Positions 41,257 through 64,000 of a stretch of DNA of 64,000 nt are shown here, in pieces. Location of the stretch: assembly GCA_035498715.1 (NCBI GenBank), contig DATJZV010000026.1, positions 11,923-75,922 of the forward strand, read 5' to 3'. Below the pieces are notes generated by a model. The model worked only from the letters and a program-made list of their open reading frames with translations. It made no database searches and was not told where the DNA came from. Position 1 is the first letter of the stretch, and every line of letters begins with the position of its first letter. A program made the translations under genes and the position numbers. This stretch comes from Nitrospirota bacterium. GTDB lineage: Bacteria; Nitrospirota; UBA9217.

Positions 41257-42024
41257 CTACCGCTTCCCGCCCGTACAACCGCTTCCCGGCATCCAGGCCT
41301 TGATGAACTCCCGGTTCAGGTTCGCTATGAACCGTGCTTTAATTCCTTTGGGACAGACGGCCTCGCATTCGTAGTGGTTGCTGCAGTTGCCGAATCCCTG
41401 CTTGAGCATCTCCTCGGTCATCACACAGACGCGGCGAGCTGCCTCGAGCCGCCCCTGGGGCAGCATCGCAAGGTGCGATATTTTCGCCGCGGTAAAAAGC
41501 ATAGCTGAGCCGTTTGGGCAGGCGGCAACACAGGCGCCACAGCCGATGCACTCTGCCGCGTCCATGGCAGTGTCCGCATCGTGTTTCGGAATGAGGACAG
41601 TGTTGGCGTCTGGGACGCCGCCGGTGTGGACGGATATATATCCCCCTGCTTGGATCATGCGATCAAAAGCACCACGGTCCACGATGAGGTCCCTTATCAC
41701 GGGGAACGCCCGGGCCCGGAAAGGTTCGACGTAGATCGTGTCGCCATCCTTGAAATGGCGCATGTGGAGCTGGCAGACTGTAGTCTTTCTCCGGGGTCCG
41801 TGGGGGATACCGTTGATGACTTGGCCGCAGGAACCGCAGATTCCCTCGCGGCAGTCGTGGTCAAAAGCGATAGGCTCCTGGTTTTTCCTGACGAGGTCTT
41901 CGTTCACCACGTCGAGCATCTCAAGGAAAGACATATCTGCGGTGATGTGCTGCGCCTCATAGAGCACGAGTCGCCCTTTGTCCTCGGGGCCATTCTGACG
42001 CCAGACATACAAGGTCAGGTTCAT
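41257..42024 (-). CDS. sdhB: Succinate dehydrogenase / fumarate reductase iron-sulfur subunit.
   Basis: [10 protein letters not shown] [2Fe-2S] motif and CxxCxxCxxxCP ferredoxin motifs. Confidence 0.85.
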
Positions 42025-42160
42025 GCTTCAGCCTCGCACAATAAGAATAGTTTTACTTGTCATGGATGGACGCAGCAGAACTCGGATATAAACGTACACC
42101 CTATAACGTAACGGCAAAGGAGCGTCCCAGAATCCTCCTTGCCTCCCTGGTTATTTTCTT

Positions 42161-44074
42161 CTATTTATAACTTCGCACTGATGGTTGAATGCTCTCGAAC
42201 ACGAGCGGTTCCTTGTGGAGTTCAGGCTCCCTGTCAACACCCTTGAACTCCCAAGCTGCAACGTAACTGAAATCCCTGTCATCCCGTTTCGCCTCGCCAT
42301 CGGGTGTCTGGTGTTCCGCCCGGAAGTGCGCACCGCAGGACTCGTCCCGATGCAGAGCGTCTCTTGCCATAAGCTCTGCAAACTCGAGAAAGTCGGCGAC
42401 GCGGCCGGCCCGCTCAAGCTCCTGGTTCAGCTGCTCGCCGCTGCCGGTCACTTTCACGTATCTCCAGAACTCTTCGCGCAATGCTGGTATCCGTGTGAGG
42501 GCACGCTTCAGGCTCTCCGCGCTCCGCTCCATACCCACGCTGTCCCACATGAGTCTGCCGAGTTCGCGGTGGATCTCGGTCACGGTCTTGTTGCCGTTCA
42601 CAGAGAGGAGTCTTTTCGCGAAGGACATGACCTCCCCGCGAGATTTCCTGAACTCCGAGTGGTCCGCATTCACCAAACCCGGTTTCGTTGCGGCGAGATA
42701 ATTTGCAATGGTGTAGGGGATGATGAAGTATCCATCAGCGAGACCCTGCATGAGAGCGCTTGCGCCGAGGCGGTTCGCCCCATGGTCCGAATAGTTTGCT
42801 TCGCCGAGGACAAAGAGCCCGCTGATATTGCTTTCGAGATTGTAGTCAACCCAGAGTCCGCCCATAACATAATGAGGTGCAGGGTAAATGCGCATTGGCT
42901 GTTTGTATGCATTGTCCGCGGTGATGCGCTCGTACATTTCGAAGAGGTTCCCGTAACGCTCGCGGATTGTATCTTCACCCAGGTATTTGATGGCGTCGCG
43001 GAAGTCGAGGTATACGCCTCGTCCGCCGGGACCTACGCCTCTGCCTTCGTCGCAGACCTCTTTGGCCGCACGTGACGTGACATCGCGGGCAGCCAGGTTG
43101 CCGAAGGTGGGATATTTACGTTCAAGGAAATAGTCTCGGTCTTCTTCGGGGATATTGTTCGCAGCACGGGTGTCGCCTTTTTTCTTCGGTACCCAGACCC
43201 TGCCGTCGTTCCGGAGCGACTCGGACATGAGCGTAAGCTTGGCTTGGTGCTCTCCAGTTACGGGGATGCAAGTAGGGTGGATCTGGGTAAAGCAGGGGTT
43301 GGCGAAGAACGCTCCTTTTTTATATGCACGGTACGTGGCGGTCACGCCCGAGGCGAGAGAGTTCGTCGTAAGGAAATAAATGTTCGAATATCCACCACTG
43401 CAGAGACAGACCGCATCGGCGGCAAAAGATTCTATCCTGCCGGTCACAAGGTCACGGATCGTGATTCCCCTCGCTTGGCCATCAATAACAACGAGGTCGA
43501 GCATCTCCGTACGCGGATGGAGGGTCACCGTGCCGGCCTTCACCTGGCGGGAAAGTGCGCCGTAGGCGCCGAGCAGGAGCTGCTGGCCTGTCTGTCCTCG
43601 GGCGTAAAAGGTGCGAGAGACCTGGGCACCACCGAACGAGCGGGTCACGAGATAGCCCGCGTAGTCTCGCGCGAAGGGCACGCCCTGGGCCACGCACTGA
43701 TCGATAATGTTTGCGCTTACTTGCGCAAGCCGATACACGTTCGCCTCGCGGGAGCGAAAGTCTCCGCCCTTGATGGTGTCGTAGAAAAGGTTGTAGACGC
43801 TGTCGCCATCGCCCGGGTAGTTCTTGGCCGCGTTGATTCCGCCTTGGGCGGCTATGCTGTGGGCCCGGCGCGGGCTATCCTGGGCGCAGAAGGAATCCAC
43901 CTGGTAGCCGAGCTCACCAAGGGTCGCCGCAGCGGACGCCCCGGCAAGGCCGGTTCCGACCACGACGATGCGGTATTTCCGCTTGTTCGCCGGGCTTACG
44001 AGCTTCAGTTCGTGGCGCCGCCGTTCCCATTTGTCAGTAAGCGGTCCGGAGGGAATTTTACCATCGAGAATCAT
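42161..44074 (-). CDS. sdhA: Succinate dehydrogenase / fumarate reductase flavoprotein subunit.
   Basis: [15 protein letters not shown]-binding fold; flavoprotein subunit length. ATG 44074 is chosen over the upstream track start. Confidence 0.85.
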
Positions 44075-44204
44075 GTAATCACCTGAATCGGATAACCACG
44101 TGAAAAGCTTCCTTGAACCGCCAAGGCGCAAATAGCGCGAAGTTGTAAAAAAAGATCCAAGTTTTTTCTGGTGTCCTCTGCGACTTCACGGCCAAGTACT
44201 TTGC

Positions 44205-44873
44205 TTACCGTTTCAATAATCCCGCGATAATTGCAACCGGTATCGCACTATACCAGAGAAATAGTATGACGGAGGCTAGCGTCCCTGACTTTTCAAAGAC
44301 AGGGAGCGTCCTCTCATTGTTCAGCCCCCAGGTCTGGATGGAGCTCTGCATGCCGTGGAACAGGTGCAGCCCCAAGGCGGCTAGGGACATGACATAAACG
44401 GCGGAAATGCCGATATATTGAAAATTGTGAACGACCATCATGAATACGTCTGGCCTTCCAAGGATGTCGGGATGGCTGTCCGCAGAAGTTGCGGGGTTCG
44501 TTACCTGGAAGGTGAACTGGAGGAGATGATAGATAAGGAAAGCGATGATGATGACGCCGGTCCAAATTTGGTTTCTTCCCGCAAAGGTTGCGCGGAGGTA
44601 ATGAGTCACAGCATAGGGCTGGGGTTTTGCCGCATGGTTCTCAAGCTTGATCACCGAGCCGTAATAGATGTGGATGGCGAAGGCCGCCATCAGGATAACG
44701 CGACCTCCCCAAACAAAGACCGGCAGGCCGTATAGACCCACGACATAGGCATTGAGCTTATGGAAGAAGATGGTCGAGTTGCCGGCTATATGAAAGATGA
44801 CGAAGATGACCAATATCTGGCCCGATATCGCCATGAGGACCTTTCTGCCGACAGTGGATGTAGGTAATAACAT
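44205..44873 (-). CDS. sdhC: Succinate dehydrogenase / fumarate reductase cytochrome b subunit (five-helix b558/FrdC type).
   Basis: 222-aa polytopic protein with conserved His ligands, first gene of a C-A-B-ordered operon. Confidence 0.7.
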   Translation of the reverse strand: MLLPTSTVGRKVLMAISGQILVIFVIFHIAGNSTIFFHKLNAYVVGLYGLPVFVWGGRVILMAAFAIHIYYGSVIKLENHAAKPQPYAVTHYLRATFAGRNQIWTGVIIIAFLIYHLLQFTFQVTNPATSADSHPDILGRPDVFMMVVHNFQYIGISAVYVMSLAALGLHLFHGMQSSIQTWGLNNERTLPVFEKSGTLASVILFLWYSAIPVAIIAGLLKR

Positions 44874-44982
44874 AAAAGATACCTTGGTAATTGGGAGTCG
44901 GTCACAGCTACGATGCCCATTTTGGTAAAAGCCGTTGCATAATTCGGCTATGGCATTACCGCATTACCGTTTTGCGTTATCA

Positions 44983-46386
44983 TTATTTCCCCGATTCTTC
45001 TCCAATCCCGCCTTCCGTCATCTTCCTCGGATCGAGCAGGCGGTCCAGTTCCTCTTTCGACAAATCCGTCATCTCAGCAGCGACATCTTTTAGTGAACGT
45101 CCCTCGGCGTAGGCCTTCTTGGCGATCTGCGCAGCCTTATCGTAACCGATGACGGGATTCAACGCAGTCACGAGAATCGGGTTTTGTCCTACGAGGCCGA
45201 TGATGCGTTGCCGGTTCACGGTAAAGCCTGCAACGGCTTTCTCCGCCAGAAGGCTCGCTGCATTTCCAAGGAGGGTAATCGACTGGAGCAGGTTATGGAT
45301 AATCACCGGCAGCATCACATTCAGCTCGAAGTTACCCTGCTGGTTGCTAACACTGATGACGACGTCGTTTCCCATGACCTGTGCGCAGGCCATCATCATC
45401 ACCTCGCACATCACCGGGTTCACTTTTCCAGGCATGATGCTCGAACCCGGCTGGAGCGCCGGCAGGGATATTTCTCCCAGCCCAGTGACTGGCCCGCTGT
45501 TCATCCACCGGAGGTCGTTGGCCATCTTCATAAAAGACGTAGCAGTCGTTTTGAGATTCCCGCTCAGTTCCACCGCCGGATCCATCATTGCCTGGGCAGC
45601 GAAATGATTGTCGGTCTCAGTAAAAGGGTGATTTGTGCGCTGCACGATCTTGTCCGCAACGCGCCTGCCAAATCCGGACGGCGCATTGATACCGGTGCCC
45701 ACGGCCGTGCCTCCGATCGCGAGCTTTGCCAAGCGCGGCAGGCATGACTCGATGCGCTCGATAGCCTGCGCTACCTGAAATGCCCAGCCGCTTATCACCT
45801 GGCTGAGAAGGATCGGCATGGCATCCATAAGATGCGTGCGCCCGGTCTTAACGACATCATGGAACTCCGGTTCACGCTTTTTGAGCACTTTATGGAGGTG
45901 CTCAAAGGACGGCAGAAGCATCTCGCTCACTTGAAGGAAAGCACTTACATGTAAGGCGGACGGGATCACGTCGTTCGAGGACTGACCCATATTAACATGA
46001 TTGTTCGGATGGACTCTTGCTTCTGAGATGCCAAGGATATGCGTTGCCCGCCGCGCGATCACTTCGTTGGCATTCATGTTCGTCGATGTCGCCGAACCGG
46101 TCTGGAAGACATCGAGAGGAAAGTGGTCGTCCCATTTTCCGTCGGCAACTTCCAGGGCTGCCTGCCGGATCGCCTGTGCTGTGCTGGGATCGAGCAGGCC
46201 GAGCTCGGCGTTCACCTCGGCGGCAGCGGCCTTGATGAACCCAAGGGCACGGATAAAGGCGCGGGGGAAGCGGATCCCGCTCACGGGGAAGTTCTCGATC
46301 GCCCGCTGTGTCTGCGCTCCATAGAGCGCGTCTACCGGGACCTTGACTTCGCCGAGGGAGTCCTTCTCGATACGAAAATCAGTCAT
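44983..46386 (-). CDS. fumC: Class II fumarate hydratase.
   Basis: GSSIMPGKVNP signature; 467 aa. Confidence 0.9.
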   Translation of the reverse strand: MTDFRIEKDSLGEVKVPVDALYGAQTQRAIENFPVSGIRFPRAFIRALGFIKAAAAEVNAELGLLDPSTAQAIRQAALEVADGKWDDHFPLDVFQTGSATSTNMNANEVIARRATHILGISEARVHPNNHVNMGQSSNDVIPSALHVSAFLQVSEMLLPSFEHLHKVLKKREPEFHDVVKTGRTHLMDAMPILLSQVISGWAFQVAQAIERIESCLPRLAKLAIGGTAVGTGINAPSGFGRRVADKIVQRTNHPFTETDNHFAAQAMMDPAVELSGNLKTTATSFMKMANDLRWMNSGPVTGLGEISLPALQPGSSIMPGKVNPVMCEVMMMACAQVMGNDVVISVSNQQGNFELNVMLPVIIHNLLQSITLLGNAASLLAEKAVAGFTVNRQRIIGLVGQNPILVTALNPVIGYDKAAQIAKKAYAEGRSLKDVAAEMTDLSKEELDRLLDPRKMTEGGIGEESGK

Positions 46387-48338: not shown

Positions 48339-49610
48339 ATGACCAGAAATCATGAACGATTACACCGGGACGAGAAAGACCTCCGCAGCCTCGCCATGAC
48401 CGAGCTGCAGACCATCTATGCCGATCTCGGCCTGTCTCAAGACGAACTTGACCTCCTGGCAGTGCCGCGCCGCTCCTTCACTGTGAGCTTCCCGGTAAAA
48501 ACGACCCTCGGCAAGACACAGATGTTTACGGGATACCGCGTACAGTACAATGACGCTCGCGGACCTGCCAAAGGTGGCATCAGATTCCATCCCGACATGA
48601 CCCTGGAGCACACAAGCGACCTCGCCTTTCTCATGGCCCTCAAGTGTGCCGTCGTGAACATCCCCTTCGGGGGGTCAAAGGGCGGAGTAGTCGTCGATCC
48701 CCTGCAACTCAGCCAAGGTGAGCTCGAGCTTGTGACGCGCGGCTACATCCGTGCCATTGCGGATTTCATCGGTCCATTCAAAGATATCCCCGCGCCTGAC
48801 GTATATACCGACGAGCATATCATGGCATGGATTCTCGACGAGTACGAACGAATCATGCGCGAACATATCCCCGCCGTGGTTACGGGAAAGCCACCCGAGC
48901 TCGGCGGCATCGGCGTGCGCAGGTATTCTACCGCACTTGGTGGCGTGCACGTGCTCGAGCAGGCCATGAGGGAAAGAGGCATGGAAGCTCACGGAACGCG
49001 GGTCGCGGTCCAAGGCTTCGGGAATGTGGGCGCCAATGTCGCACGGATCCTCCATCACTGGGGCTACACGGTCGTTGCCGTGAGCGACGTGAACGGAGCC
49101 ATTCTGAACCCGAATGGCATCGACATCTCCTCGCTCAGGCACCACAAGAACAAGGCCGGCAGCGTCGTAGGTTTCCCCAGCGCAACGGGTATCACGAATG
49201 CCGAACTCCTCACCACCGAATGCGACGTGCTCATCCCGGCGGCCCTTTCGAACCAGCTTGATGAGGATAATGCGCGAGACGTAAAGGCAAAGATCATCCT
49301 CGAGCTCGCCAACGCCCCTGTAACTGCTGCGGCCGACGATATTTTCTTCAGCAGGGACGTCCTCGTCATTCCGGACATCCTCGCGAACGCCGGCGGTGTC
49401 GTGGTGAGCTACTTCGAATGGAGCCAGAACCTGAGCAACGATCGCTGGCCGGAACAGAAGGTCCTCGAGAAATTAAAACAGACCATGACCAACGCCTTCA
49501 ATGATGTACATACACTCTGCAGGGAAATCCGGTGCAGACTGCGCAAGGCTGCGTATCAGCTGGCAGTGAAGCGGATCCTGCACGTCGAGCGGCTCCGGGG
49601 GAATCTGTAG
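48339..49610 (+). CDS. gdhA: Glutamate dehydrogenase (Glu/Leu/Phe/Val dehydrogenase family).
   Basis: AKGGIRFHP...FGGSKGGV and the NAD-binding GFGNVG. Confidence 0.85.
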   Translation: MTRNHERLHRDEKDLRSLAMTELQTIYADLGLSQDELDLLAVPRRSFTVSFPVKTTLGKTQMFTGYRVQYNDARGPAKGGIRFHPDMTLEHTSDLAFLMALKCAVVNIPFGGSKGGVVVDPLQLSQGELELVTRGYIRAIADFIGPFKDIPAPDVYTDEHIMAWILDEYERIMREHIPAVVTGKPPELGGIGVRRYSTALGGVHVLEQAMRERGMEAHGTRVAVQGFGNVGANVARILHHWGYTVVAVSDVNGAILNPNGIDISSLRHHKNKAGSVVGFPSATGITNAELLTTECDVLIPAALSNQLDEDNARDVKAKIILELANAPVTAAADDIFFSRDVLVIPDILANAGGVVVSYFEWSQNLSNDRWPEQKVLEKLKQTMTNAFNDVHTLCREIRCRLRKAAYQLAVKRILHVERLRGNL

Positions 49611-54742: not shown

Positions 54743-54850
54743 GCGAAACGATCTCTGCCAATCGGATGAGGGCGTTTCCAGGCTTCCTGGCATTCGATGC
54801 AAATGAAGGTCATGGAAAGTCTGACATGGAGGTGAGAATTATCGGCGATT

Positions 54851-54882
54851 GTCAAAAAATACCCCCCCCGTCACGGGGGGGT
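54851..54882 (-). terminator. Rho-independent terminator for sodC.
   Basis: TACCCCCCC-GTCAC-GGGGGGGTA followed on the minus strand by TTTTTT. Confidence 0.7.
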
Positions 54883-54912
54883 ATCATCAAAAATATGCCA
54901 GAAAATCATTTT

Positions 54913-55446
54913 TTATTTGATAATCCCGCATGCTATTCTTGCACCGCCTCCACCCAGTGGTGCTGGCATATCGGAATAGTTGTCACCACCGGCATGGATC
55001 ATAAGCGAACGGCCCATCAGATCGGCAGTCTTGAGCCGCGGGGCGAGAACGGGAGTGTTGGCCATGCCATCAGCCCCGACGTAGAGTGCCGGCAGATCGC
55101 CCAGGTGTCCCTGTCCATAGGGCCCTTCGTGCTTGCCTGATCCTGCAGGATCATAGTGTCCGCCTGCTGCAAGACCCGCTACTTGCTTGCCGTCCTTCAT
55201 GGCCGGGCCGCAGTCAGCATTCTGATGGACATGAAAACCATGAATCCCCGGCATCAGTCCGGTAAGCATCGGGACGAGCAGGATACCGTGCGGAGTATCA
55301 GAGATCACAACTGTGCCAATACTCTTGCCCGCACCCTGATCGGTTATAAGGTTCATCTGAACCACGATATCTCCTGCGAACGCAGCTCCCGAAATCAACA
55401 AAATCAATCCAAGTACAGACATCAGAACTAATAGCTTCTTCTCCAT
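54913..55446 (-). CDS. sodC: Cu,Zn superoxide dismutase, periplasmic.
   Basis: [11 protein letters not shown], His-rich metal ligands, signal peptide. AAAGGAGGG RBS. Confidence 0.9.
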
Positions 55447-55771
55447 AGGTGTTTCCCTCCTTTTGAGTTGTGATTAAGATATGTTATATTATATCACGTG
55501 TCTCATGTACCATGCGATGCTCACTGGTGAGAGAGAGGGCGGGAGAGAACGGGCTGATGCTTGTAGATTAAAACTCAGAAGATGGCCGGTATAGGCATTG
55601 ACTTCCTGGCCTAAGGTGCTAAAATTAATATAGAATTAGTCCTTAAAAGGGACTGGAAATGTCCTGATTTTATGCAATCTTGATTACGGCGAAAGGCCCT
55701 TCGGTGCAGCCATCTGAGGGGGTGGTGAAGCTGAAAGGGCTTTCCGGCCGTAAGACTATTGGCATACGGCC

Positions 55772-57727
55772 ATGAAGATGAACCTAACGCACAAGATACT
55801 GGAAGCCCATTTGATTGAGGGGGAGCTGGTTCCCGGCAAGGAGATTGCCATCAGGATCGATCACACCCTTCTGCAGGACGCAACGGGAACGCTCGCGATG
55901 CTGGAGTTCGAAGCCCTTGGCATAGATCAGGTAAAAGTCGAGCTTGCTGCTCAGTACGTGGATCACAACCTCCTCCAGACGGACAATAAGAATGCTGACG
56001 ACCACAAGTTCCTTCAGACCGCCGCTGCACGGTATGGTATATATTTCAGCAAGCCGGGCAACGGCGTCTCGCACCAAGTCCATATGGAGCGTTTCGCTGT
56101 TCCGGGCAAAACGCTTCTGGGCGCTGACAGCCACACGCCGGGGGCTGCCGGAATATCCATGTTCGGCATCGGCGCTGGTGGTTTAGACGTGGCCCTGGCC
56201 ATGGCTGGTTATCCTTATCATCTGACCTGCCCGAAGGTGCTCGGGGTAAAACTCACGGGCATGCTCCCCGACTGGGTGAGCGCCAAGGACGTGATTCTCG
56301 AGATGCTCCGCAGATATGACGTAAAGGGCTGCGTAGGCAAGATCATCGAATACTACGGTCCGGGGGTGAAGACCTTGTCCGCAACGGACCGCGAGACCAT
56401 CGGCAACATGGGCACCGAGACCGGTGCCACGACCTCGATCTTTCCCTCCGACGAACGGACTAAAGAGTATCTCATCGCCCAGGGAAGGGGCGATATGTGG
56501 GTACGGCTTTCCTCCGACGAGGACGCAGCGTATGACGAGTACGCGGAGATCGACCTTTCGAAGCTGGAGCCTTTAATTGCCAAGCCATCGTCTCCGGGCA
56601 ACGTCGTGCCGGTGCGTGAAATCGCTGGTCTCGAGGTGGGCCAGGCGATCGTGGGCAGCAGCGTAAATTCTTCATTCCGTGACCTTATGGTCGCTGCCAA
56701 GATGCTGGAAGGCCGGCGCGTTCATCCCAATACTTCGTTCCATGTGAATCCCGGAAGCCGCCAGGTGCTCGAGAACGTGTATCAGGCAGGCGGACTATTG
56801 GCTTTTCTGACCTCGGGCGCGCGTGTGCATGAACCCGGGTGTCAGGGGTGCATCGGCATGGGACAAGCACCGGCTACCGGCGAGGTAAGCCTCCGCACGT
56901 TCCCGAGAAATTTTCCAGGCAGGTCGGGGACCAAGGATGACAAAGTATATCTCTGCTCACCCGAGACAGCCACAGCAGCGGCATTAAGAGGCGTGATCAC
57001 AGACCCACAAGACCTCTCAAGAGAAATGAAGTACCCGCGTATTGAAGACCCTAAGCAGTATCTGATCGATGAGAAATCCATCATTTTCCCGTCAGAAAAT
57101 TTGAGGAATACCGAGGTAACTCGCGGGCCGAACATAAAGGCCCTGCCCGAACTTCAGCCCCTTCCTGATACGCTCGAGGCAGACGTTGTGCTCAAGGTGG
57201 GGGACAACATTTCTACAGACACCATCATGCCGGCCGGGAACCGTGTACTTCCTTTCCGGTCCAACATCGAAGCGATCAGCGAATTCGTGTATTCCCAGAT
57301 CGATCCTGATTTTGCGAAAGAATGCAAGGCACGGGGGGCTGTGATCGTCATCGGCGGCGAGAACTATGGCCAGGGGTCGAGCCGCGAACATGCGGCGCTT
57401 GCACCGAGGTTTCTCGGAGTTCGAGCAAAGATTGTGAAAAGCTATGCCCGCATCCATAAGACCAATCTTTGCAACTTCGGCATAGTCCCGCTCACCTTCA
57501 AGGACCCGAAGGACTATGATCGCATCAACAAAGGCACAAAAGTGGTGTTTCCGGATATCAGAGGGCGGATCGAACGGGGTGACCGGGAGATCCCAGCTGT
57601 GGTAGAGGGGCAGACCATCATGACGGTACTGGATGTATCCGAGCGTCAGCGCAAACACCTGCTGGCAGGAGGGGCCTTGAATTTTGTGAAAAATGATTTG
57701 CTAATAGAGGTCTATCCAAAAAGCTGA
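55772..57727 (+). CDS. acn: Aconitate hydratase (about 650-aa aconitase-family form).
   Basis: Aconitase Cys ligands (...CQGCIGMGQAP...) and the swivel domain. A possible TTGACT-16-TAAAAT promoter lies at 55598-55625. Confidence 0.75.
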   Translation: MKMNLTHKILEAHLIEGELVPGKEIAIRIDHTLLQDATGTLAMLEFEALGIDQVKVELAAQYVDHNLLQTDNKNADDHKFLQTAAARYGIYFSKPGNGVSHQVHMERFAVPGKTLLGADSHTPGAAGISMFGIGAGGLDVALAMAGYPYHLTCPKVLGVKLTGMLPDWVSAKDVILEMLRRYDVKGCVGKIIEYYGPGVKTLSATDRETIGNMGTETGATTSIFPSDERTKEYLIAQGRGDMWVRLSSDEDAAYDEYAEIDLSKLEPLIAKPSSPGNVVPVREIAGLEVGQAIVGSSVNSSFRDLMVAAKMLEGRRVHPNTSFHVNPGSRQVLENVYQAGGLLAFLTSGARVHEPGCQGCIGMGQAPATGEVSLRTFPRNFPGRSGTKDDKVYLCSPETATAAALRGVITDPQDLSREMKYPRIEDPKQYLIDEKSIIFPSENLRNTEVTRGPNIKALPELQPLPDTLEADVVLKVGDNISTDTIMPAGNRVLPFRSNIEAISEFVYSQIDPDFAKECKARGAVIVIGGENYGQGSSREHAALAPRFLGVRAKIVKSYARIHKTNLCNFGIVPLTFKDPKDYDRINKGTKVVFPDIRGRIERGDREIPAVVEGQTIMTVLDVSERQRKHLLAGGALNFVKNDLLIEVYPKS

Positions 57728-57783
57728 AATCGCAAGCGGATTGACGAAGTTTCGTAGTTTATGGCTTAAAGAGAAGGTCGAAT

Positions 57784-59004
57784 ATGGCAATGAAAGCGAA
57801 AATAGGAGAAATCACGCAACAAAAACCTGATGAAGTAAGAACAAAGAATATAGGATTGCGCGGTGTGACAGTCGCGGATACGAAGATCTCTGATGTCGAT
57901 GGTGAGAACGGCATTCTTATTTACCGCGGGTATCGGATAGAAGAGCTTGCGGAAAACTCAACCTTCGAAGAGACCGCCTATCTGCTTCTCAATGACGCAC
58001 TTCCCACGGCAGGACAGCTAAACGAATTTTCAAGCCGTCTTGTCGAGGCTCGGCGGACCCCGCGCTTTGTCCTTGAGAGTTTTAAACAGCTGCCGGCCCA
58101 GGCACGGCCCATGGATGTGCTCCAGGCATCGATATCGCTTCTCGCCATGGCCGATCCCGAGCTTGCGCAGGAAACGAGGGATGTAAACGTATCGAAGGCA
58201 ATCCGGCTCATTGCGCAGGTCGCCGCTGTGGTGGCCTCTTGGCATCGGATACGTCAGGGATTGGAATCGCTTCAATCCGATGATGGGCTCTCTCATGCCG
58301 GAAATTTTCTCTGGCAGCTTACGGGGAAGAAACCTGACCGGGAGATGGCGAAAGCCCTCGACACGGCATTGGTGCTCCATGCCGACCATTCATTTAACGC
58401 ATCCACGTTCGCCTGCCGCGAGGTGGTTTCGACACAGGCGCACATATACGCCGGCGTTGCCGCCGGGGTGGGGGCCCTTTCCGGTAGCCTGCACGGCGGC
58501 GCCAATGCGCAGGTTATGAAGATGCTCATGGAATTGCAAAATGAGAAGGACATTGCGGGGTGGGTGAGAAAACAGCTCGACAGCGGCCAGAAGATCATGG
58601 GCATGGGCCATGCGGTGTACAAGACCACCGACCCACGCGCGAAATTCCTGAAAGAGATGTGCAAGCGCCTCGGTAAGAAGCTCGGCCAGGAGCAGTGGTA
58701 CCTCCTGTCCACGCAGATCGAGGAGACCGCGGTCGCCGAGTTCGAGAAGCGGGGCAAGACCACGATCAAACCCAATGTGGATTTCTACAGCGCCCCGGTC
58801 TACCACATGATGGGTATTCCGGGGGATATCATGACCCCGATCTTCGCCATGGCACGAATCGCTGGCTGGACCGCCCATATCATCGAAGAGAAGTTCGCGG
58901 AGGCGCAGGGAAAACCTGCCCTGTATAGACCGTCATCGGACTATATCGGCAACTATTGCGGAAAAACGGGATGCACCTATGCACCGGTTGAGAAGAGAAA
59001 GTGA
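57784..59004 (+). CDS. gltA: Citrate synthase.
   Basis: GHAVYKTTDPRA and catalytic His/Asp. GAAGG RBS. Confidence 0.85.
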   Translation: MAMKAKIGEITQQKPDEVRTKNIGLRGVTVADTKISDVDGENGILIYRGYRIEELAENSTFEETAYLLLNDALPTAGQLNEFSSRLVEARRTPRFVLESFKQLPAQARPMDVLQASISLLAMADPELAQETRDVNVSKAIRLIAQVAAVVASWHRIRQGLESLQSDDGLSHAGNFLWQLTGKKPDREMAKALDTALVLHADHSFNASTFACREVVSTQAHIYAGVAAGVGALSGSLHGGANAQVMKMLMELQNEKDIAGWVRKQLDSGQKIMGMGHAVYKTTDPRAKFLKEMCKRLGKKLGQEQWYLLSTQIEETAVAEFEKRGKTTIKPNVDFYSAPVYHMMGIPGDIMTPIFAMARIAGWTAHIIEEKFAEAQGKPALYRPSSDYIGNYCGKTGCTYAPVEKRK

Positions 59005-59130
59005 CTGTCGCACGGCGCCGTAATTGATCCTTCCTTGCTTGATTCGGAATCCAGTGGTTTCATTTTGAATTCCCTCACTCATGGGAGCGACAGTCAAGAA
59101 GAAGGAAATAAAATAAACGGAGGATGCCAG

Positions 59131-60636
59131 ATGGCAGAGAAGAAGGCAATTAAGAAATTACGCAAACCAGGCAAAGCAGAATACCGCCCCAAACAGGAAC
59201 ACATGGTGTCCTCCAAGCAGGGGGTGAAAAAAATGAAAGCCAGTTCATTGAAATCATTTAAAGAAAAAAGAATGACGATACAGTCAATCAACCCTTACAC
59301 TGAAGAGGTCATGCAAGAGTTCACGCTCATGACGGAGCCTGAGATCAACGAGCAGGTTGTAAAATCCCGTCAGGCGTTCAACCGCTGGAGCGCGCGGCCC
59401 ATTTCGGAGAGAGCCTTCCTGGTCAAACGACTAGGCGAGCATCTGAGGAACGAAAAAAGGAAATACGCGGAAATCATTACTCGCGAGATGGGTAAAACCA
59501 TTAAAGAGTCGCTCGCCGAGGTCGAAAAGTGCGCTTGGCTCTGTGATTACTATGCCGAGAACGCCGAGCGGTTCCTGAAACCTGAGGAGATTAAGACGGA
59601 GAACAGGAAGAGCTATATCATGTTCCAGCCTCTGGGCTTGGTGCTCGCGATCATGCCTTGGAATTTTCCGTACTGGCAGGCGCTGCGGTTTGGGATCCCG
59701 GCAATCATAGCCGGGAATGCGATCCTGCTGAAGCATGCCTCGAACGTCCCGATGACAGCGCTCTCCATCGAGGACGCTTTCATGGTTGCGGGTTTTCCGG
59801 AGAACGTGTTCAAGACCCTGATCATCGATTCAAAGGAAGCGCTCAGGCTTATTGATAACGACAAGGTCGATGCTGTGTCGCTGACCGGCAGCAACAAGGC
59901 CGGCGAAGAAGTCGGCGCTCATGCGGGGGGGAAGATCAAAAAAGTCGTGCTCGAGCTCGGCGGCTCTGATCCTTTCATCGTGCTCGATGATGCCGATGTG
60001 GAAAAGGCGGGCACGATGGCGGCCAATGCAAGAATGATCAATGCTGGCCAGAGCTGCATTGCGGCGAAGCGCTTTATCGTGATGGACAAGGTGGCCGATG
60101 AGTTCAAGAAATATTTCACCGCTCGGCTAAAAGAACTCATTGTCGGCGATCCAATGGACGGGAAAACCGATGTCGGCCCGGTGGCCAAACGGGATATACT
60201 TAATTCTCTGAACGGACAGCTGCGGGACGCGAAGGCAAAAGGCGCGGAGGTGATTCAGCTTGATCATACCTTCAAGAAAGGGCTGTTCTTTCCTCCATGC
60301 GCGGTATATAATCCGACGAAGAACAGCAAGGTCCTGACCGAAGAGGTGTTCGGTCCGATCGCACCGGTCATTATCGTCAAGAATGAGGACGAAGCAGTCC
60401 GCGTGGCCAATGAGACGCAGTTCGGCCTCGGCGCCGCCATCTGGAGCAGAAACCTCGAGCGGGCGGAACGGCTGGCGGCAAGGATCGATGCCGGAACAGT
60501 CACGATAAACGACATGGTGAAGTCAGACCCGCGGCTTCCCTTCGGGGGCATCAAGAAGTCCGGCATCGGCAGAGAGCTGTCGCACTACGGACTGAAGGAG
60601 TTTGTGAATATTAAGACCGTGGTTGTAAAAGAATAG
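59131..60636 (+). CDS. NAD(P)-dependent aldehyde dehydrogenase (succinate-semialdehyde dehydrogenase-like) with a Lys-rich 47-aa N-terminal extension.
   Basis: VVLELGGSDP and catalytic NAGQSCIAAKRF. GGAGG lies 7 nt before the ATG at 59131; an alternative start at 59272 (MTIQSINPY) would give a canonical 454-aa ALDH. Confidence 0.75.
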   Translation: MAEKKAIKKLRKPGKAEYRPKQEHMVSSKQGVKKMKASSLKSFKEKRMTIQSINPYTEEVMQEFTLMTEPEINEQVVKSRQAFNRWSARPISERAFLVKRLGEHLRNEKRKYAEIITREMGKTIKESLAEVEKCAWLCDYYAENAERFLKPEEIKTENRKSYIMFQPLGLVLAIMPWNFPYWQALRFGIPAIIAGNAILLKHASNVPMTALSIEDAFMVAGFPENVFKTLIIDSKEALRLIDNDKVDAVSLTGSNKAGEEVGAHAGGKIKKVVLELGGSDPFIVLDDADVEKAGTMAANARMINAGQSCIAAKRFIVMDKVADEFKKYFTARLKELIVGDPMDGKTDVGPVAKRDILNSLNGQLRDAKAKGAEVIQLDHTFKKGLFFPPCAVYNPTKNSKVLTEEVFGPIAPVIIVKNEDEAVRVANETQFGLGAAIWSRNLERAERLAARIDAGTVTINDMVKSDPRLPFGGIKKSGIGRELSHYGLKEFVNIKTVVVKE

Positions 60637-60753
60637 ATCACAGAAGCGGCAATAACCTGGGAGACACAGCGGAAGTGAAAGAGTGAAACTTAAGCTCCCT
60701 AGTGTCTCCCGTGGCTAATTTTTGTTTTCAATATTTACGAGGTTTGACTATCA

Positions 60754-62388
60754 ATGAAGGCATCGGATCTGTTCGTGAAACAGCTTGAGGAAGAGGGTGT
60801 CGAGTATATCTTCGGTCTGCCAGGCGAGGAAAATCTCGATCTCCTCGAATCGCTCCGTACATCGTCGATCAAAGTCGTCATTACCCGTCACGAGCAGGCC
60901 GCGGCTTTCATGGCCGCTACCTATGGCCGGTTGACCGGAAAAGCGGGTGTTTGTTTCTCGACGCTCGGGCCGGGGGCGACGAACTTGGTGACAGGGGTTG
61001 CTCATGCACAGCTCATTGGCGCGCCGCTCGTGTCTATATCAGGCCAGAAAGCGATAAGATCAAACTGGCAGGCCCGGTTCCAGCTCATCGACGTGGTGAA
61101 CCTGATGCGTCCGATCACCAAGGAATCTGTCTCAATCGTGGACCCAAACACGCTGCCGACGATCCTCCGGAACGCTTTCAAGCTGGCGCAGGCAGAGCGG
61201 CCCGGAGCGGTGCACGTGGAGCTGCCTGAGGATGTTGCGGAAAGCCAGACGGATGCAGTCGTACAGAAGCGAGGTCTTGTGCGCAGGCCCGCGCCGGACC
61301 CCAAGACGATTGTCCATGCCGCGGAGATGATAAATACAGCGCAGCGACCACTTATTATCCTCTCGTCGGGGGCGAATAGGAACCTGATCACCCGGCAGTT
61401 GATGCAGTTCATCGAGAAGACGGGGATCTACGCTGTGCACACCCAGATGGGGAAGGGTGTGCTGAGTGACTCATCGGAATACAGCCTCCTGGCAACTGGT
61501 ATCCACAAGCGCGATTGGGTGAACTGTGGCATCGACCGCGCAGACACGATCATCACGATCGGGTACAACATCGTCGAATATCCTCCCTATGTCTGGAACA
61601 GTCACCTCGACAAGAAGATCATCAACATCGATTTTGCCGAGGCGGAGGTGGACAAGTACTATGATCCGGATATCGAAATCATTGGTGATATTTCATGCTC
61701 GCTCCGGCAACTCCGGGAATTGATTACGGGCAGGAAGAGTGATGAAACCTTCAAGTCCATCCGGGAATTCCTGGACAGGAAGCTCTCCCTTGACTTCAAG
61801 AAACGGTATCCCTTGACACCCCAGGAGATCGTGTGGCATGCGCGCGAGGCGCTGTCGCATGAAGACATTCTGACTCTCGATAACGGAATCTACAAGCTCT
61901 GGTTCTCCCGTCTTTACCGGACCTACAAGCCGAATACTTTCCTGCTGGACAACGCACTCGCGACCATGGGCGCAGGGCTCTCGGCCGGCATCATGGCCAA
62001 GATGCTCAGGCCCGACCGAAATGTGCTGGCGGTGGTAGGGGATGGCGGATTCATGATGAACTCCCAGGAGCTGGAGACTGCTCTGCGGCATAACGTTCCC
62101 CTTGTTGTTCTGATCTTGAATGATAATGCTTTCGGATTTGTCAAATGGGAGCAACAAAGCAAGGGCTTTGCGAGCTTCGGCCTGGACTATTCAAATCCGG
62201 ATTTTGTAAAGTACGCAGAAAGCTACGGAGCAGTCGGCATGAGGGTAAAGGAAGGGGACAATCTCTCAGAACTAATACGGCGAGCGTTCTCGCTGAAAAA
62301 GCTGGTTCTCATAGAGTGCCCCGTCGACTACTCGGTCAACTATGAAACTTTCTCAAGGGATCTCGCTAACATCGCCTGCGAATATTGA
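60754..62388 (+). CDS. Thiamine-diphosphate enzyme of the acetolactate synthase / 2-oxoglutarate decarboxylase family.
   Basis: Pyr, central and PP domains; ThDP motif GDGGFMMNSQELETA...N. Confidence 0.75.
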   Translation: MKASDLFVKQLEEEGVEYIFGLPGEENLDLLESLRTSSIKVVITRHEQAAAFMAATYGRLTGKAGVCFSTLGPGATNLVTGVAHAQLIGAPLVSISGQKAIRSNWQARFQLIDVVNLMRPITKESVSIVDPNTLPTILRNAFKLAQAERPGAVHVELPEDVAESQTDAVVQKRGLVRRPAPDPKTIVHAAEMINTAQRPLIILSSGANRNLITRQLMQFIEKTGIYAVHTQMGKGVLSDSSEYSLLATGIHKRDWVNCGIDRADTIITIGYNIVEYPPYVWNSHLDKKIINIDFAEAEVDKYYDPDIEIIGDISCSLRQLRELITGRKSDETFKSIREFLDRKLSLDFKKRYPLTPQEIVWHAREALSHEDILTLDNGIYKLWFSRLYRTYKPNTFLLDNALATMGAGLSAGIMAKMLRPDRNVLAVVGDGGFMMNSQELETALRHNVPLVVLILNDNAFGFVKWEQQSKGFASFGLDYSNPDFVKYAESYGAVGMRVKEGDNLSELIRRAFSLKKLVLIECPVDYSVNYETFSRDLANIACEY

Positions 62389-62729
62389 TTTTTGCTGCTG
62401 CTTGCTGCTATCGGGAAGAAACTGAGTCTTTGCTTATATAACCAAGTCGTTTAACGCGACTGCATCCTTGTTGCATTTAGTATTCATCGGGGAGCGTCAA
62501 AACGATTATCCCTTCTCTTGCAGGAGAGCCAGTACGGGGCTGTGGTATATTGTGGTTATATTTTGCGGGAGATATGAGATTCATCACGACGGTTGTCCTG
62601 GGCGGGCATGTCAGATTCTTCGCCGCTGCCCAGAAAGACATAAAAAGATGATGCTGGTTTTTCAACGCCGGTTAACAGTCACATACAAGGTGTGCAAGGG
62701 AAAATCGGTTTAGTCCGAATAAGGAAGCC

Positions 62730-63362
62730 ATGAAATCAGACAAGCGAAGAGACTTTGACAAAGAGGCTGCCACTTGGGACCGGAACCCGGGCCGCATCAA
62801 GCTCGCCGAGGACGTGGCTGATACAATCATCCGGGAGATAAAACCGACGGAGGACATGGACGTCCTGGATTTCGGCTGCGGCACGGGACTGGTGACGCTC
62901 CGGTTGCAGCCTTTCGTGAAGACGATAACCGGTGCAGACAGTTCAAAGGGGATGCTCGGCGTACTCCAGGACAAGGTGAGCAGGTTCGGCTTGAAGAATG
63001 TAGAGGCCCAATTCATGGATGCTGAAAGTGGGGGGCTGGTGGCAGGGAAGTTTCACGTGGTCGTGAGCAGCATGACGCTGCATCATATCCATGATCCTGC
63101 GCAGCTGTTTCGGAAGCTGCGCGACCTCCTGCATCCCGGCGGTACCCTCTGCATCTCCGACCTTGACAAGGAGGACGGTTCCTTCCACGGTGATCAAACC
63201 GGCGTTTTGCATTTCGGTTTTGAGCGACCATATCTGAAAGGGCTTCTTGAAAAGGCCGGTTTTCACGAGGTTCGCGACGTAACAGCCGCAACGGTTGTAA
63301 AAGAGATTGAGGGGAAGGGGAAAAAAACGTTTACGGTTTTCATGATAACAGGGAAAAAGTAA
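62730..63362 (+). CDS. Class I SAM-dependent methyltransferase.
   Basis: VLDFGCGTG motif I; AAGGAAG RBS. Confidence 0.75.
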   Translation: MKSDKRRDFDKEAATWDRNPGRIKLAEDVADTIIREIKPTEDMDVLDFGCGTGLVTLRLQPFVKTITGADSSKGMLGVLQDKVSRFGLKNVEAQFMDAESGGLVAGKFHVVVSSMTLHHIHDPAQLFRKLRDLLHPGGTLCISDLDKEDGSFHGDQTGVLHFGFERPYLKGLLEKAGFHEVRDVTAATVVKEIEGKGKKTFTVFMITGKK

Positions 63363-63412
63363 TGGCAAGCAGGCAGGTGGCACCCGTATTATGGGATGTT
63401 ATATTCCGTGAA

Positions 63413-64000
63413 TCACAGAGCGGCTTTGACACATTCCTTGGATTCGCTGTCCAGCAGTTCCTTTACTTTGTTTAAGAGCTCGTTGGGTGATACTGGCTTT
63501 GAAAGGAAGTTCACGCCATCTTCGAGGATGCCCTTCTTATGAATGATCTCAGCGGTATATCCGCTCGTAAAAAGCGCCTTGACCGCAGGGTGTGTCTTCC
63601 TGATCTCGTCATAGGTCTGTCTGCCGTTCTTTCTCGGCATGATGACATCCAGGATGACGAGCTGGATCGCATCTCTATTTCCCCGGTATTTTTGTATCGC
63701 CTCTTCGCCATCTGAAGCTTCAATGACGGAATAGCCTGATCCCTGGAGTACCGATCTCATAAGGTTCCTGACGCTGGTATCATCCTCAGCGATCAGGAGG
63801 GTCTCTGCGCCAGCCTTCGGCACGGAGGCGTTAACACGCGTTGCTTGCTCGAACGCGACCCTGCTCAGCGGGAGGTAAATATTGAAGGTAGTCCCGATGG
63901 CCGGTACGCTATGGACGTCGATATACCCATTGTGCTGTTTTACGATCCCATAGACGATTGCAAGACCAAGTCCGGTCCCTTTGCCTGTAGACTTGGTGGT
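63413..64000 (-). CDS. Hybrid sensor histidine kinase with a C-terminal receiver domain; the N-terminal part lies beyond the window end.
   Basis: The minus-strand frame stays open past the track's ATG. Upstream residues [24 protein letters not shown]...[10 protein letters not shown] are the HATPase_c G2 box, fused in frame to the CheY-like receiver (LIAEDD...ILDVIMP...K). Confidence 0.7.

What the first reader, a model, noticed from the sequence alone, without database searches (positions are those of the whole stretch)
55772..62388. ALS-like ThDP enzyme next to an SSADH-like ALDH at the end of a TCA-cycle block: candidate 2-oxoglutarate decarboxylase bypass
The window concentrates TCA and anaplerotic genes: frd/sdhCAB, fumC, malic enzyme, glutamate dehydrogenase, then aconitase, citrate synthase, an aldehyde dehydrogenase (454-aa core) and an acetolactate-synthase-family ThDP enzyme (544 aa), all co-oriented. 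No 2-oxoglutarate dehydrogenase or 2-oxoglutarate:ferredoxin oxidoreductase gene is visible here. In cyanobacteria the TCA cycle is closed by an ALS-homologous 2-oxoglutarate decarboxylase and a succinate-semialdehyde dehydrogenase encoded by adjacent genes (Zhang and Bryant 2011). The same gene pair and gene sizes, placed directly after gltA and acn, suggest the same bypass here. If confirmed in a non-cyanobacterial lineage that would be notable. Alternatively the pair is an ordinary acetolactate synthase or sulfoacetaldehyde acetyltransferase.
Basis: partly seen in the sequence, partly recalled or inferred. Interest (0 to 1): 0.6.

Follow-up and report, generated by a model that had tools for sequence, protein, structure and literature searches.

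The report
Likely 2-oxoglutarate-to-succinate bypass operon
In this Nitrospirota genome fragment, a gene annotated "acetolactate synthase" and its aldehyde-dehydrogenase neighbour are most likely the two-enzyme shortcut from 2-oxoglutarate to succinate known from cyanobacteria, a known pathway in a new host rather than a new one.

Summary
Aconitase, citrate synthase, an aldehyde dehydrogenase (ALDH) and a 544-aa thiamine-diphosphate (ThDP) enzyme lie head to tail at 55772-62388.

- **ThDP enzyme.** It is not a bona fide acetolactate synthase. It fails the AlsS and AHAS model cut-offs and has no ilvN nearby. It groups (NJ bootstrap 100%) with cyanobacterial 2-oxoglutarate decarboxylase (OgdA) in NCBIfam NF006187, which is misleadingly named "ALS large subunit". 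It is only 42% identical to OgdA and sits in an uncharacterised subclade.
- **ALDH.** Its closest solved structure is Synechococcus succinic semialdehyde dehydrogenase. It keeps all catalytic, substrate-carboxylate and NADP+ residues.
- **Context.** acn-gltA-ALDH-ThDP recurs in relatives with different flanks. A "Methanosarcina" MAG has ALDH-ThDP-sdhA-sdhB-fumC. A sister clade pairs the ThDP gene with an ALDH related to ALDH21, a second SSADH family.

Best reading (about 0.7): 2-oxoglutarate to succinic semialdehyde to succinate. Whether it closes an otherwise open cycle cannot be tested, because no whole genome is available. Zhang and Bryant (2011) already noted related pairs in anaerobes and methanogens, so this is a new member of a known kind.

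The parts
55598..55625 (+). Sigma-70-like promoter candidate upstream of acn (TTGACT-16-TAAAAT, 10/12, TG extension)
   Evidence: This is a consensus match only; the number of such sites in the region equals the shuffle expectation.
55772..57727 (+). Aconitate hydratase (651 aa), first gene of the cluster
   Evidence: Pfam Aconitase and Aconitase_C; NF005558 973 bits (cut-off 612). Conserved at the same position in L006, L007 and L012.
57784..59004 (+). Citrate synthase (type II citrate / 2-methylcitrate synthase subfamily, 406 aa)
   Evidence: PF00285 443 bits; TIGR01800 429.9 bits (cut-off 421.3). It starts 56 nt after acn.
59131..60636 (+). SsaD-like NADP+-type succinic semialdehyde dehydrogenase. 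501 aa from the ATG with a GGAGGA RBS; the 454-aa catalytic core starts at 59272; Lys-rich 47-aa N-terminal extension.
   Evidence: Best PDB hits are Synechococcus PCC 7002 SSADH 3VZ1/4IT9 at 433 bits. It is 47% identical to the NIES-970 SsaD. W130, N131, W135, R139, K154, S157, E228, C262 and S419 are all conserved (residue roles from PMC7510979). RBS.
60754..62388 (+). OgdA-family ThDP enzyme, candidate 2-oxoglutarate decarboxylase (544 aa); NCBI protein HTP03913.1, annotated 'acetolactate synthase large subunit'
   Evidence: NF006187 786 bits (cut-off 509) against AlsS 459 (cut-off 510). A cyanobacterial OgdA orthologue hits the same model best. 42% identical to the NIES-970 OgdA. Tree. Motifs. 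Source name.
48339..49610 (+). Glutamate dehydrogenase (context: supplies or consumes 2-oxoglutarate)
   Evidence: A gdh gene also lies 2.4 kb downstream of the pair in L017.
41257..46386 (-). sdhB, sdhA, sdhC-like gene and class II fumarase (context: the steps that consume the predicted product, succinate)
   Evidence: In L014 sdhA, sdhB and fumC directly follow the ALDH-ThDP pair.

Best explanation
Genes 59131-60636 and 60754-62388 most likely encode a two-step, CoA-independent route from 2-oxoglutarate to succinate.
1. The ThDP enzyme decarboxylates 2-oxoglutarate non-oxidatively to succinic semialdehyde plus CO2.
2. The ALDH oxidises that aldehyde to succinate and reduces NADP+.

The two genes sit behind aconitase and citrate synthase in what looks like one transcription unit. 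The cluster would then encode most of the oxidative arm from acetyl-CoA plus oxaloacetate to succinate; isocitrate dehydrogenase is encoded elsewhere.

Shown here:
- gene identities and family membership;
- conserved catalytic and substrate-binding residues of the ALDH;
- an intact ThDP/Mg motif and catalytic Glu in the decarboxylase;
- conserved synteny.

Inferred:
- the substrate of the ThDP enzyme;
- co-transcription;
- the physiological role.
For: **1. Family.** The ThDP enzyme passes NF006187 (786 bits, cut-off 509) and fails both AlsS models and the AHAS model. Orthologues of the characterised Synechococcus OgdA hit the same model best, at 866 and 873 bits.

**2. Tree.** The window clade, other PRK08322 members and cyanobacterial OgdA form one clade, separate from AlsS and AHAS, in 100% of 200 NJ bootstraps.

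**3. Shared motifs.** PGEEN and the Lys of [HY]K[LMI]W (MaKGD K386, predicted to contact 2-oxoglutarate, PMC10418658) are shared with OgdA and absent from AlsS and AHAS. E47, G429-D430-G431 and N456-D457 are intact.

**4. ALDH.** The best solved relatives are Synechococcus SSADH, followed by the Sad/YneI-type SSADHs. The substrate triad W135/R139/S419, catalytic C262, E228 and N131, and the NADP+ determinants K154 and S157 are all conserved (PMC7510979).

**5. Same order and sizes as cyanobacteria.** ssaD (454 aa) is followed by ogdA (545 aa) in L001.

**6. Context.**
- acn-gltA-ALDH-ThDP is conserved in L006, L007 (gaps of 7 and 2 nt) and L012, with unrelated flanks.
- L014 has ALDH-ThDP-sdhA-sdhB-fumC.
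- L017 has gdh nearby.

**7. Bracketing.** In the sister clade, 56 of 65 loci with enough flank have an ALDH directly downstream of the ThDP gene. For those ALDHs, the closest characterised relative is ALDH21, an NADP+ SSADH (PMC7823795). ThDP-ALDH fusion proteins exist. One sister-clade ThDP gene (L022) is paired with an SsaD-type ALDH.

**8. No ilvN/ilvH** in the window or in related loci.
Against: - There is no biochemical evidence for any member of this subclade.
- Identity to characterised OgdA is only 42%. The window clade is closer to the uncharacterised Group 2 (49%) and is separated from the cyanobacterial clade with 100% bootstrap.
- Of three MaKGD residues predicted by docking to contact 2-oxoglutarate, only one is kept (K386 = K381). 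Q254 is His251. K471 is Glu466 in the closest relatives, although Lys464 lies two residues away and L012 keeps the Lys.
- The closest solved chain, 13bb, is labelled acetolactate synthase. Its organism and assay status are unknown.
- The ALDH scores below the NCBIfam equivalog cut-off (517 against 730). The cyanobacterial SsaD orthologue does too (678).
- icd is not in the cluster.
- The trees are NJ on a limited sample.
Confidence: 0.7

Rival explanations
1. The pair is a decarboxylase plus aldehyde dehydrogenase module, but for a different 2-oxo acid. Candidates are 2-oxoadipate to glutarate, oxaloacetate to malonate, 2-oxobutyrate to propionate feeding a methylcitrate route, or pyruvate to acetate.
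For: - The subclade is uncharacterised and two of three docking-predicted 2-oxoglutarate contacts differ.
- JGI names the cyanobacterial SsaD-type ALDHs 'succinate-semialdehyde/glutarate-semialdehyde dehydrogenase'.
- The citrate synthase belongs to the 2-methylcitrate/citrate synthase II subfamily.
Against: - The ALDH keeps the exact W135/R139/S419 pocket of the SSA-bound Synechococcus enzyme.
- The neighbours are gltA and acn here, and sdhAB and fumC in L014, which point to a C4 dicarboxylate product.
- No prpB, prpD or other methylcitrate genes are present in the window.
- The sister clade is tied to a second SSADH family.
Confidence: 0.15
2. The ThDP enzyme is a real acetolactate synthase (catabolic or stand-alone anabolic), as annotated. 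The ALDH next to it is functionally unrelated.
For: - The PGAP and JGI names.
- The fold is AlsS-like, TM 0.91 to B. subtilis AlsS.
- The nearest solved chain, 13bb, is named acetolactate synthase.
Against: - The name comes from NF006187, which also captures the characterised 2-oxoglutarate decarboxylase.
- The protein scores below the cut-offs of both AlsS models and the AHAS model.
- It is separated from AlsS and AHAS at 100% bootstrap.
- No ilvN/ilvH is present, and no alsD/budA, ilvC or ilvD is in the window.
- ALDH adjacency is conserved across phyla, and fusion proteins exist. Neither makes sense for a product that is not an aldehyde.
Confidence: 0.05
3. The ALDH is an SSADH serving another source of succinic semialdehyde (GABA shunt or 4-hydroxybutyrate metabolism). 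The ThDP enzyme has an unrelated carboligase or lyase role.
For: - SSADHs commonly serve GABA catabolism.
- ThDP enzymes of this superfamily include carboligases and lyases, such as the HKA synthase and HACL hits.
Against: - No gadB, gabT or 4-hydroxybutyrate dehydrogenase gene is in the window.
- The pairing of this ThDP family with an SSADH-type ALDH is conserved from cyanobacteria to archaea.
Confidence: 0.07

Closest known systems
OgdA/SsaD bypass of cyanobacteria (Synechococcus PCC 7002 A2770/A2771, Zhang and Bryant 2011; Microcystis MaKGD, PMC10418658)
   Same: - Same ThDP family (NF006187).
- Same ALDH subfamily, with identical catalytic, substrate and NADP+ residues.
- Same gene order (ssaD then ogdA) and the same sizes (454/545 against 454-aa core/544).
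- Same predicted chemistry.
   Different: - The ThDP enzyme is only 42% identical and lies in a separate subclade. Its motifs are GQK...FQ, TQMGKG and LDNGxYKxWF, where cyanobacteria have GQV...HQ and DVGAHK.
- One predicted substrate Lys is replaced by Glu.
- The pair is embedded in an acn-gltA cluster, and the ALDH carries a Lys-rich N-terminal extension.
- The host is a non-phototrophic Nitrospirota MAG whose OGDH/KOR status is unknown.
Catabolic acetolactate synthase AlsS (B. subtilis 4RJI, K. pneumoniae 1OZF)
   Same: Same fold (TM 0.91). FAD-independent-type ALS is the nearest characterised outgroup, at 32-35% identity.
   Different: - Below the AlsS model cut-offs.
- PGEEN instead of PGAKI, and the [HY]K Lys in place of Ala.
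- No alsD partner; it has an ALDH partner instead.
ThDP + ALDH21-type ALDH modules of Proteobacteria, Bacteroidota and others ('Group 2', uncharacterised as a pair)
   Same: Sister clade of the window enzyme (49% identity). Also a tight two-gene decarboxylase/ALDH module, sometimes fused into one protein.
   Different: - The gene order is reversed (ThDP then ALDH).
- The ALDH belongs to a different family (N135/H139 pocket; closest characterised relative is moss ALDH21, an NADP+ SSADH).
- No TCA genes are attached.
SucA-like 2-oxoglutarate decarboxylase (Kgd) of mycobacteria and Euglena with GabD1/GabD2
   Same: The same net reaction has been proposed (2-oxoglutarate to succinic semialdehyde to succinate). 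The ALDH's best NCBIfam model is NF006915/PRK09406 (NADP-dependent SSADH), which from my own memory is the GabD1 type; this was not checked here.
   Different: The decarboxylase is an E1o-type protein unrelated in architecture to the ALS-like enzyme here. This comparison rests on my own knowledge and was not tested here.

Membership tests
OgdA-type 2-oxoglutarate decarboxylase (NCBIfam NF006187 / PRK08322) | Scores above the family model's cut-off and clearly above the sister ALS models | tested here: met
   786 bits against cut-off 509. The next model, AlsS, scores 459. OgdA orthologues score 866 and 873 on the same model.
OgdA-type 2-oxoglutarate decarboxylase (NCBIfam NF006187 / PRK08322) | Groups with characterised cyanobacterial OgdA, separate from AlsS and AHAS | tested here: met
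   NJ bootstrap 100% for the whole family. Within it, the window clade is separated from the cyanobacterial clade (100%), so it is a paralogous or deeply diverged subclade.
OgdA-type 2-oxoglutarate decarboxylase (NCBIfam NF006187 / PRK08322) | Catalytic Glu, GDG...ND ThDP/Mg motif and V-conformation Met (MaKGD E50, D435, D462, M410; shown by mutagenesis in PMC10418658) | tested here: met
   E47, D430, D457 and M405 are present.
OgdA-type 2-oxoglutarate decarboxylase (NCBIfam NF006187 / PRK08322) | Residues predicted by docking to bind 2-oxoglutarate (MaKGD Q254, K386, K471) | tested here: inconclusive
   K386 is kept (K381, invariant in alignment A2). Q254 is His251. K471 is Glu466, with Lys464 nearby. 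The reference residues come from docking on a model and were not mutated.
OgdA-type 2-oxoglutarate decarboxylase (NCBIfam NF006187 / PRK08322) | Adjacent, co-oriented SsaD-type SSADH gene | tested here: met
   The ALDH ends 117 nt upstream of the ThDP start. The order is the same as in L001 and in 7 of 7 non-cyanobacterial Group 1 loci, although in L016 the ALDH lies 3.7 kb away.
OgdA-type 2-oxoglutarate decarboxylase (NCBIfam NF006187 / PRK08322) | Decarboxylates 2-oxoglutarate to succinic semialdehyde | not testable with these tools
   Needs an enzyme assay.
SsaD/Sad-type succinic semialdehyde dehydrogenase | Catalytic Cys262, Glu228 and Asn131, and the SSA carboxylate pocket Trp135/Arg139/Ser419 | tested here: met
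   All are conserved. Residue roles come from PMC7510979.
SsaD/Sad-type succinic semialdehyde dehydrogenase | Passes a curated SSADH equivalog model | tested here: inconclusive
   The best model is NF006915 at 517.6 bits, below the cut-off of 730. The orthologue of the crystallised cyanobacterial SSADH also falls below it (678).
Acetolactate synthase (AHAS IlvB/IlvI or catabolic AlsS) | Passes an AlsS or AHAS large-subunit model | tested here: not met
   NF006378 458.6 (cut-off 510); TIGR02418 422.7 (cut-off 551); TIGR00118 381.8 (cut-off 538).
Acetolactate synthase (AHAS IlvB/IlvI or catabolic AlsS) | Regulatory small subunit (ilvN/ilvH) or alsD/ilvC/ilvD next to it | tested here: not met
   tblastn with E. 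coli IlvH and IlvN gives nothing below E = 2 in the window or in related loci. The downstream gene is a methyltransferase.
Sulfoacetaldehyde acetyltransferase (Xsc) | Matches the Xsc model | tested here: not met
   Xsc is not among the 25 best NCBIfam families, the lowest of which scores 251 bits.
TCA bypass that closes an otherwise open cycle | Genome lacks OGDH and 2-oxoglutarate:ferredoxin oxidoreductase | not testable with these tools
   Only about 80 kb of the MAG could be read, and none of these genes is there. The genomes of close relatives (3.08 and 1.74 Mb contigs) cannot be searched with these tools.

The most novel reading that the evidence does not exclude
The whole NF006187 family, annotated 'acetolactate synthase large subunit' across many phyla of Bacteria and Archaea, consists of 2-oxoglutarate decarboxylases. 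Each is wired to one of two non-orthologous SSADH families (SsaD-type or ALDH21-type), and some are fused to their partner. The cyanobacterial 'bypass' would then be one branch of a widespread, oxygen-insensitive, CoA-independent, NADPH-yielding route from 2-oxoglutarate to succinate. That route would coexist with OGDH or KOR in many organisms, and in this Nitrospirota lineage it is built into a citrate synthase-aconitase operon.
Probability: 0.45. Interest if true: 0.6.

Novelty: new member of a known kind. Interest (0 to 1): 0.4.

Why it matters
If the assignment is right, metabolic reconstructions of Nitrospirota and many other MAGs miss a step. They read this gene as a spare acetolactate synthase and may score the TCA cycle as incomplete, or as dependent on oxygen-sensitive KOR. 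The route gives NADPH instead of reduced ferredoxin or ATP, and it is irreversible. That would commit the cycle to the oxidative direction. The broader pattern (two SSADH families repeatedly joined to one ThDP family) points to a systematic annotation error that two enzyme assays could correct.

Tried and rejected
1. **Apparent ALDH-ThDP fusion in L012.** This is an artefact: a run of N masks the intergenic region.
2. **Whole-genome check for korAB/sucAB.** Not possible. Walking gave only 5.6 kb upstream and 8.4 kb downstream of the window, with no such genes. One look-up failed on a start-codon mismatch.
3. **Hairpin plus U-tract between the ALDH and the ThDP gene (about 60659-60730).** The fold z-score is -1.6, and the sequence is not conserved in L006. 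I did not count it as part of the system.
4. **Rfam** found nothing in 54700-64000.
5. **Docking-derived 2-oxoglutarate contacts of MaKGD as a specificity test.** Inconclusive; one of three is kept.
6. **Identity of PDB 13bb, the nearest solved chain.** I could not establish it. It is absent from the Foldseek copy, and I found no paper.
7. **A third conserved partner gene in Group 2 loci.** None exists: the most frequent neighbour family occurs in 7 of 73 loci.
8. **Literature on TCA reconstruction in Thermodesulfovibrionia/Nitrospirota.** Nothing useful came up. One genome paper on a betaproteobacterium draws OGD plus SSADH in a figure, but the enzyme type is not stated.
9. **The AlphaFold model** (pLDDT 83) only confirms an AlsS-like fold. 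The active-site loops 103-110 and 461-470 are low-confidence.


Full report
**1. What is there**

The window carries four + strand ORFs at the stated coordinates, identified by Pfam and NCBIfam:
- aconitase, 55772-57727
- citrate synthase, 57784-59004
- an ALDH ORF, 59035-60636
- a three-domain ThDP enzyme, 60754-62388

The ALDH most likely starts at the ATG at 59131, which follows a GGAGGA ribosome-binding site. That gives 501 aa with a Lys-rich 47-aa extension in front of the 454-aa core.

Elsewhere in the window are sdhB, sdhA, an sdhC-like gene and fumC on the minus strand, and malic enzyme and gdh on the plus strand. There is no KOR, OGDH, sucCD, icd or mdh. The intergenic gaps are 56, 126 and 117 nt. 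No + strand terminator-like site lies in the intergenic gaps, and the best promoter-like site lies upstream of acn.

The exact proteins are on record as HTP03910 (acn) and HTP03913 (ThDP enzyme) of a 'Nitrospirota bacterium' MAG. The ThDP enzyme is named 'acetolactate synthase large subunit' there.

**2. The name 'acetolactate synthase' carries no weight**

The ThDP enzyme passes only NF006187/PRK08322 (786 bits, cut-off 509). It fails both AlsS models and the AHAS model.

To get a reference, I recovered the ssaD-ogdA locus of Synechococcus sp. NIES-970, a close relative of PCC 7002, through the crystallised SSADH. Its OgdA and a Picosynechococcus OgdA hit the same NF006187 model best, at 866 and 873 bits. 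So the model that produces the name also captures the characterised 2-oxoglutarate decarboxylase. Almost all of the cyanobacterial proteins that carry a name are labelled ALS too.

**3. Phylogeny and motifs**

I built an NJ tree of 60 sequences with 200 bootstraps.
- The family, including cyanobacterial OgdA, separates from AlsS and AHAS in 100% of replicates.
- The window clade joins ThDP genes from a 'Methanosarcina' MAG, a Methanosarcinales MAG, a Woesearchaeota genome and a Planctomycetales MAG (100%).
- This clade, a large 'Group 2' clade and the PDB 13bb clade together exclude the cyanobacterial clade (100%).

Mean identities of the window clade are 42% to cyanobacterial OgdA, 49% to Group 2 and 32% to AlsS. 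The window enzyme is therefore a member of the OgdA family but not an orthologue of the assayed enzymes.

On motifs, PGEEN and the Lys of [HY]K[LMI]W are family-wide and absent from AlsS and AHAS. The catalytic Glu, the GDG...ND motif and the V-conformation Met are intact.

Three MaKGD residues were predicted by docking to touch 2-oxoglutarate (PMC10418658). Of these, K386 is kept, Q254 is His, and K471 is Glu in the closest relatives. L012 and the other Group 1 members keep that Lys.

**4. The ALDH is an SSADH by every sequence test available**

- Its best solved relatives are the Synechococcus PCC 7002 SSADH structures (433 bits), followed by the Sad/YneI-type SSADHs.
- It is 47% identical to the NIES-970 SsaD over its full length, with one gap.
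- It conserves the nucleophile C262, the base E228, N131, the SSA-carboxylate pocket W135/R139/S419 and the NADP+ determinants K154 and S157. The residue roles come from PMC7510979.
- It scores below the NCBIfam equivalog cut-off, but so does the cyanobacterial orthologue.

**5. Context**

- The four-gene cluster recurs in a 3.08 Mb genome (L006), a 1.74 Mb genome (L007) and a Nitrospiraceae MAG (L012), each with different flanks. In L007 the gaps are only 7 and 2 nt.
- In L014 the order is ALDH-ThDP-sdhA-sdhB-fumC, all co-oriented. These are the two enzymes that would make succinate followed by the two steps that consume it.
- In L017 a glutamate dehydrogenase gene lies 2.4 kb downstream.
- No ilvN/ilvH is found anywhere.

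**6. Bracketing by the sister clade**

The genome scan returned many Group 2 loci from Proteobacteria, Bacteroidota, Verrucomicrobiota, CPR and others.
- In 56 of 65 loci with enough flank, the ThDP gene is directly followed by an ALDH.
- This ALDH is of another family, with an N135/H139 pocket.
- The Burkholderia version matches Burkholderia structural-genomics entries. At 545 bits it also matches Physcomitrium ALDH21.
- A Bacteroidota version also has ALDH21 as its best solved hit, at 291 bits.
- ALDH21 is a characterised NADP+-dependent SSADH (PMC7823795; bioRxiv 10.64898/2026.01.13.699213).
- Two representatives are single ThDP-ALDH polypeptides.
- One Group 2 ThDP gene (L022) is followed by an SsaD-type ALDH.
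- No third gene is conserved next to the pair.

The window clade thus sits between a clade with proven 2-oxoglutarate decarboxylases and a clade tied to a second SSADH family. That makes 2-oxoglutarate the most economical substrate assignment.

**7. What remains open**

- No member of the window's subclade has been assayed.
- The trees are NJ on a limited sample.
- The nearest solved chain, 13bb, is named ALS, and I could not identify its source.
- I could not search the rest of the genome for KOR or OGDH.
- Group 2 hosts include Burkholderia and sphingomonads, which have OGDH (established knowledge, not tested here). The module therefore need not mark a broken cycle.

**8. Novelty**

The kind is known (Zhang and Bryant 2011). 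That paper already noted closely related genes in some methanogens and anaerobic bacteria, as summarised in PMC12214013. New here are:
- the Nitrospirota host;
- the acn-gltA-ssaD-ogdA operon;
- the distinct subclade;
- in passing, the breadth of the family and its link to ALDH21-type enzymes.

Verdict: a well-supported but unproven new member of a known kind. Interest 0.4.

Noticed in passing
L018-L091 (e.g. L051:8001-11103, Burkholderia anthina): A two-gene module: an NF006187-family ThDP gene directly followed by an ALDH whose closest characterised relative is moss ALDH21, an NADP+ SSADH. It occurs in 56 of 65 loci from many phyla. No third conserved neighbour is present, and the ThDP gene is annotated as acetolactate synthase.
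   Followed up: partly
P0242 (1016 aa) and P0300 (1019 aa), from the representative library: Single polypeptides with a ThDP-enzyme part (1-543) and an ALDH part (about 555-1007), apparently natural fusions of the Group 2 module. I could not check the underlying DNA for frameshift errors.
   Followed up: partly
L014:34-7454 ('Methanosarcina sp.' MAG contig DATMYS010000201.1): Co-oriented SsaD-type ALDH, ThDP enzyme, sdhA/frdA, sdhB/frdB and class II fumarase: a compact operon from 2-oxoglutarate to malate. The binning of this 8-kb contig was not verified.
   Followed up: partly
window 59131-59271; also L006:8382 onward and L012:6405 onward: The ALDH carries a Lys/Arg-rich N-terminal extension of about 47 aa in this and some related Nitrospirota. 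It is absent from L007 and from cyanobacterial SsaD. Its function is unknown.
   Followed up: partly
window 60659-60730: A long hairpin (GGGAGACAC...GUGUCUCCC) followed by a U-rich tract lies between the ALDH and the ThDP gene. It could be a weak terminator or attenuator. The fold z-score is only -1.6 and the sequence is not conserved in L006.
   Followed up: yes
P0246 (677 aa), from the representative library: An OgdA-like ThDP enzyme (53% identical to the Synechococcus NIES-970 OgdA) with a C-terminal cyclic-nucleotide-binding domain, which suggests direct cNMP control of the decarboxylase.
   Followed up: no
window 46768-48180: The malic enzyme has an N-terminal ACT domain (ACT_4, residues 10-81) in front of the malic and NAD-binding domains.
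   Followed up: no
window 11474-13108: A CitMHS-type citrate/dicarboxylate transporter is fused to a C-terminal DUF192 domain (544 aa).
   Followed up: no
window 54913-55446 (minus strand): A Cu/Zn superoxide dismutase gene sits divergently just upstream of the acn-gltA-ALDH-ThDP cluster, and also in the identical metagenome contigs L002-L004. This hints at exposure to oxygen.
   Followed up: no
window 31691-33352: A 553-aa ORF has only a weak match to ATP-dependent PEP carboxykinase (63 bits). It may be a divergent PEPCK-like anaplerotic enzyme.
   Followed up: no
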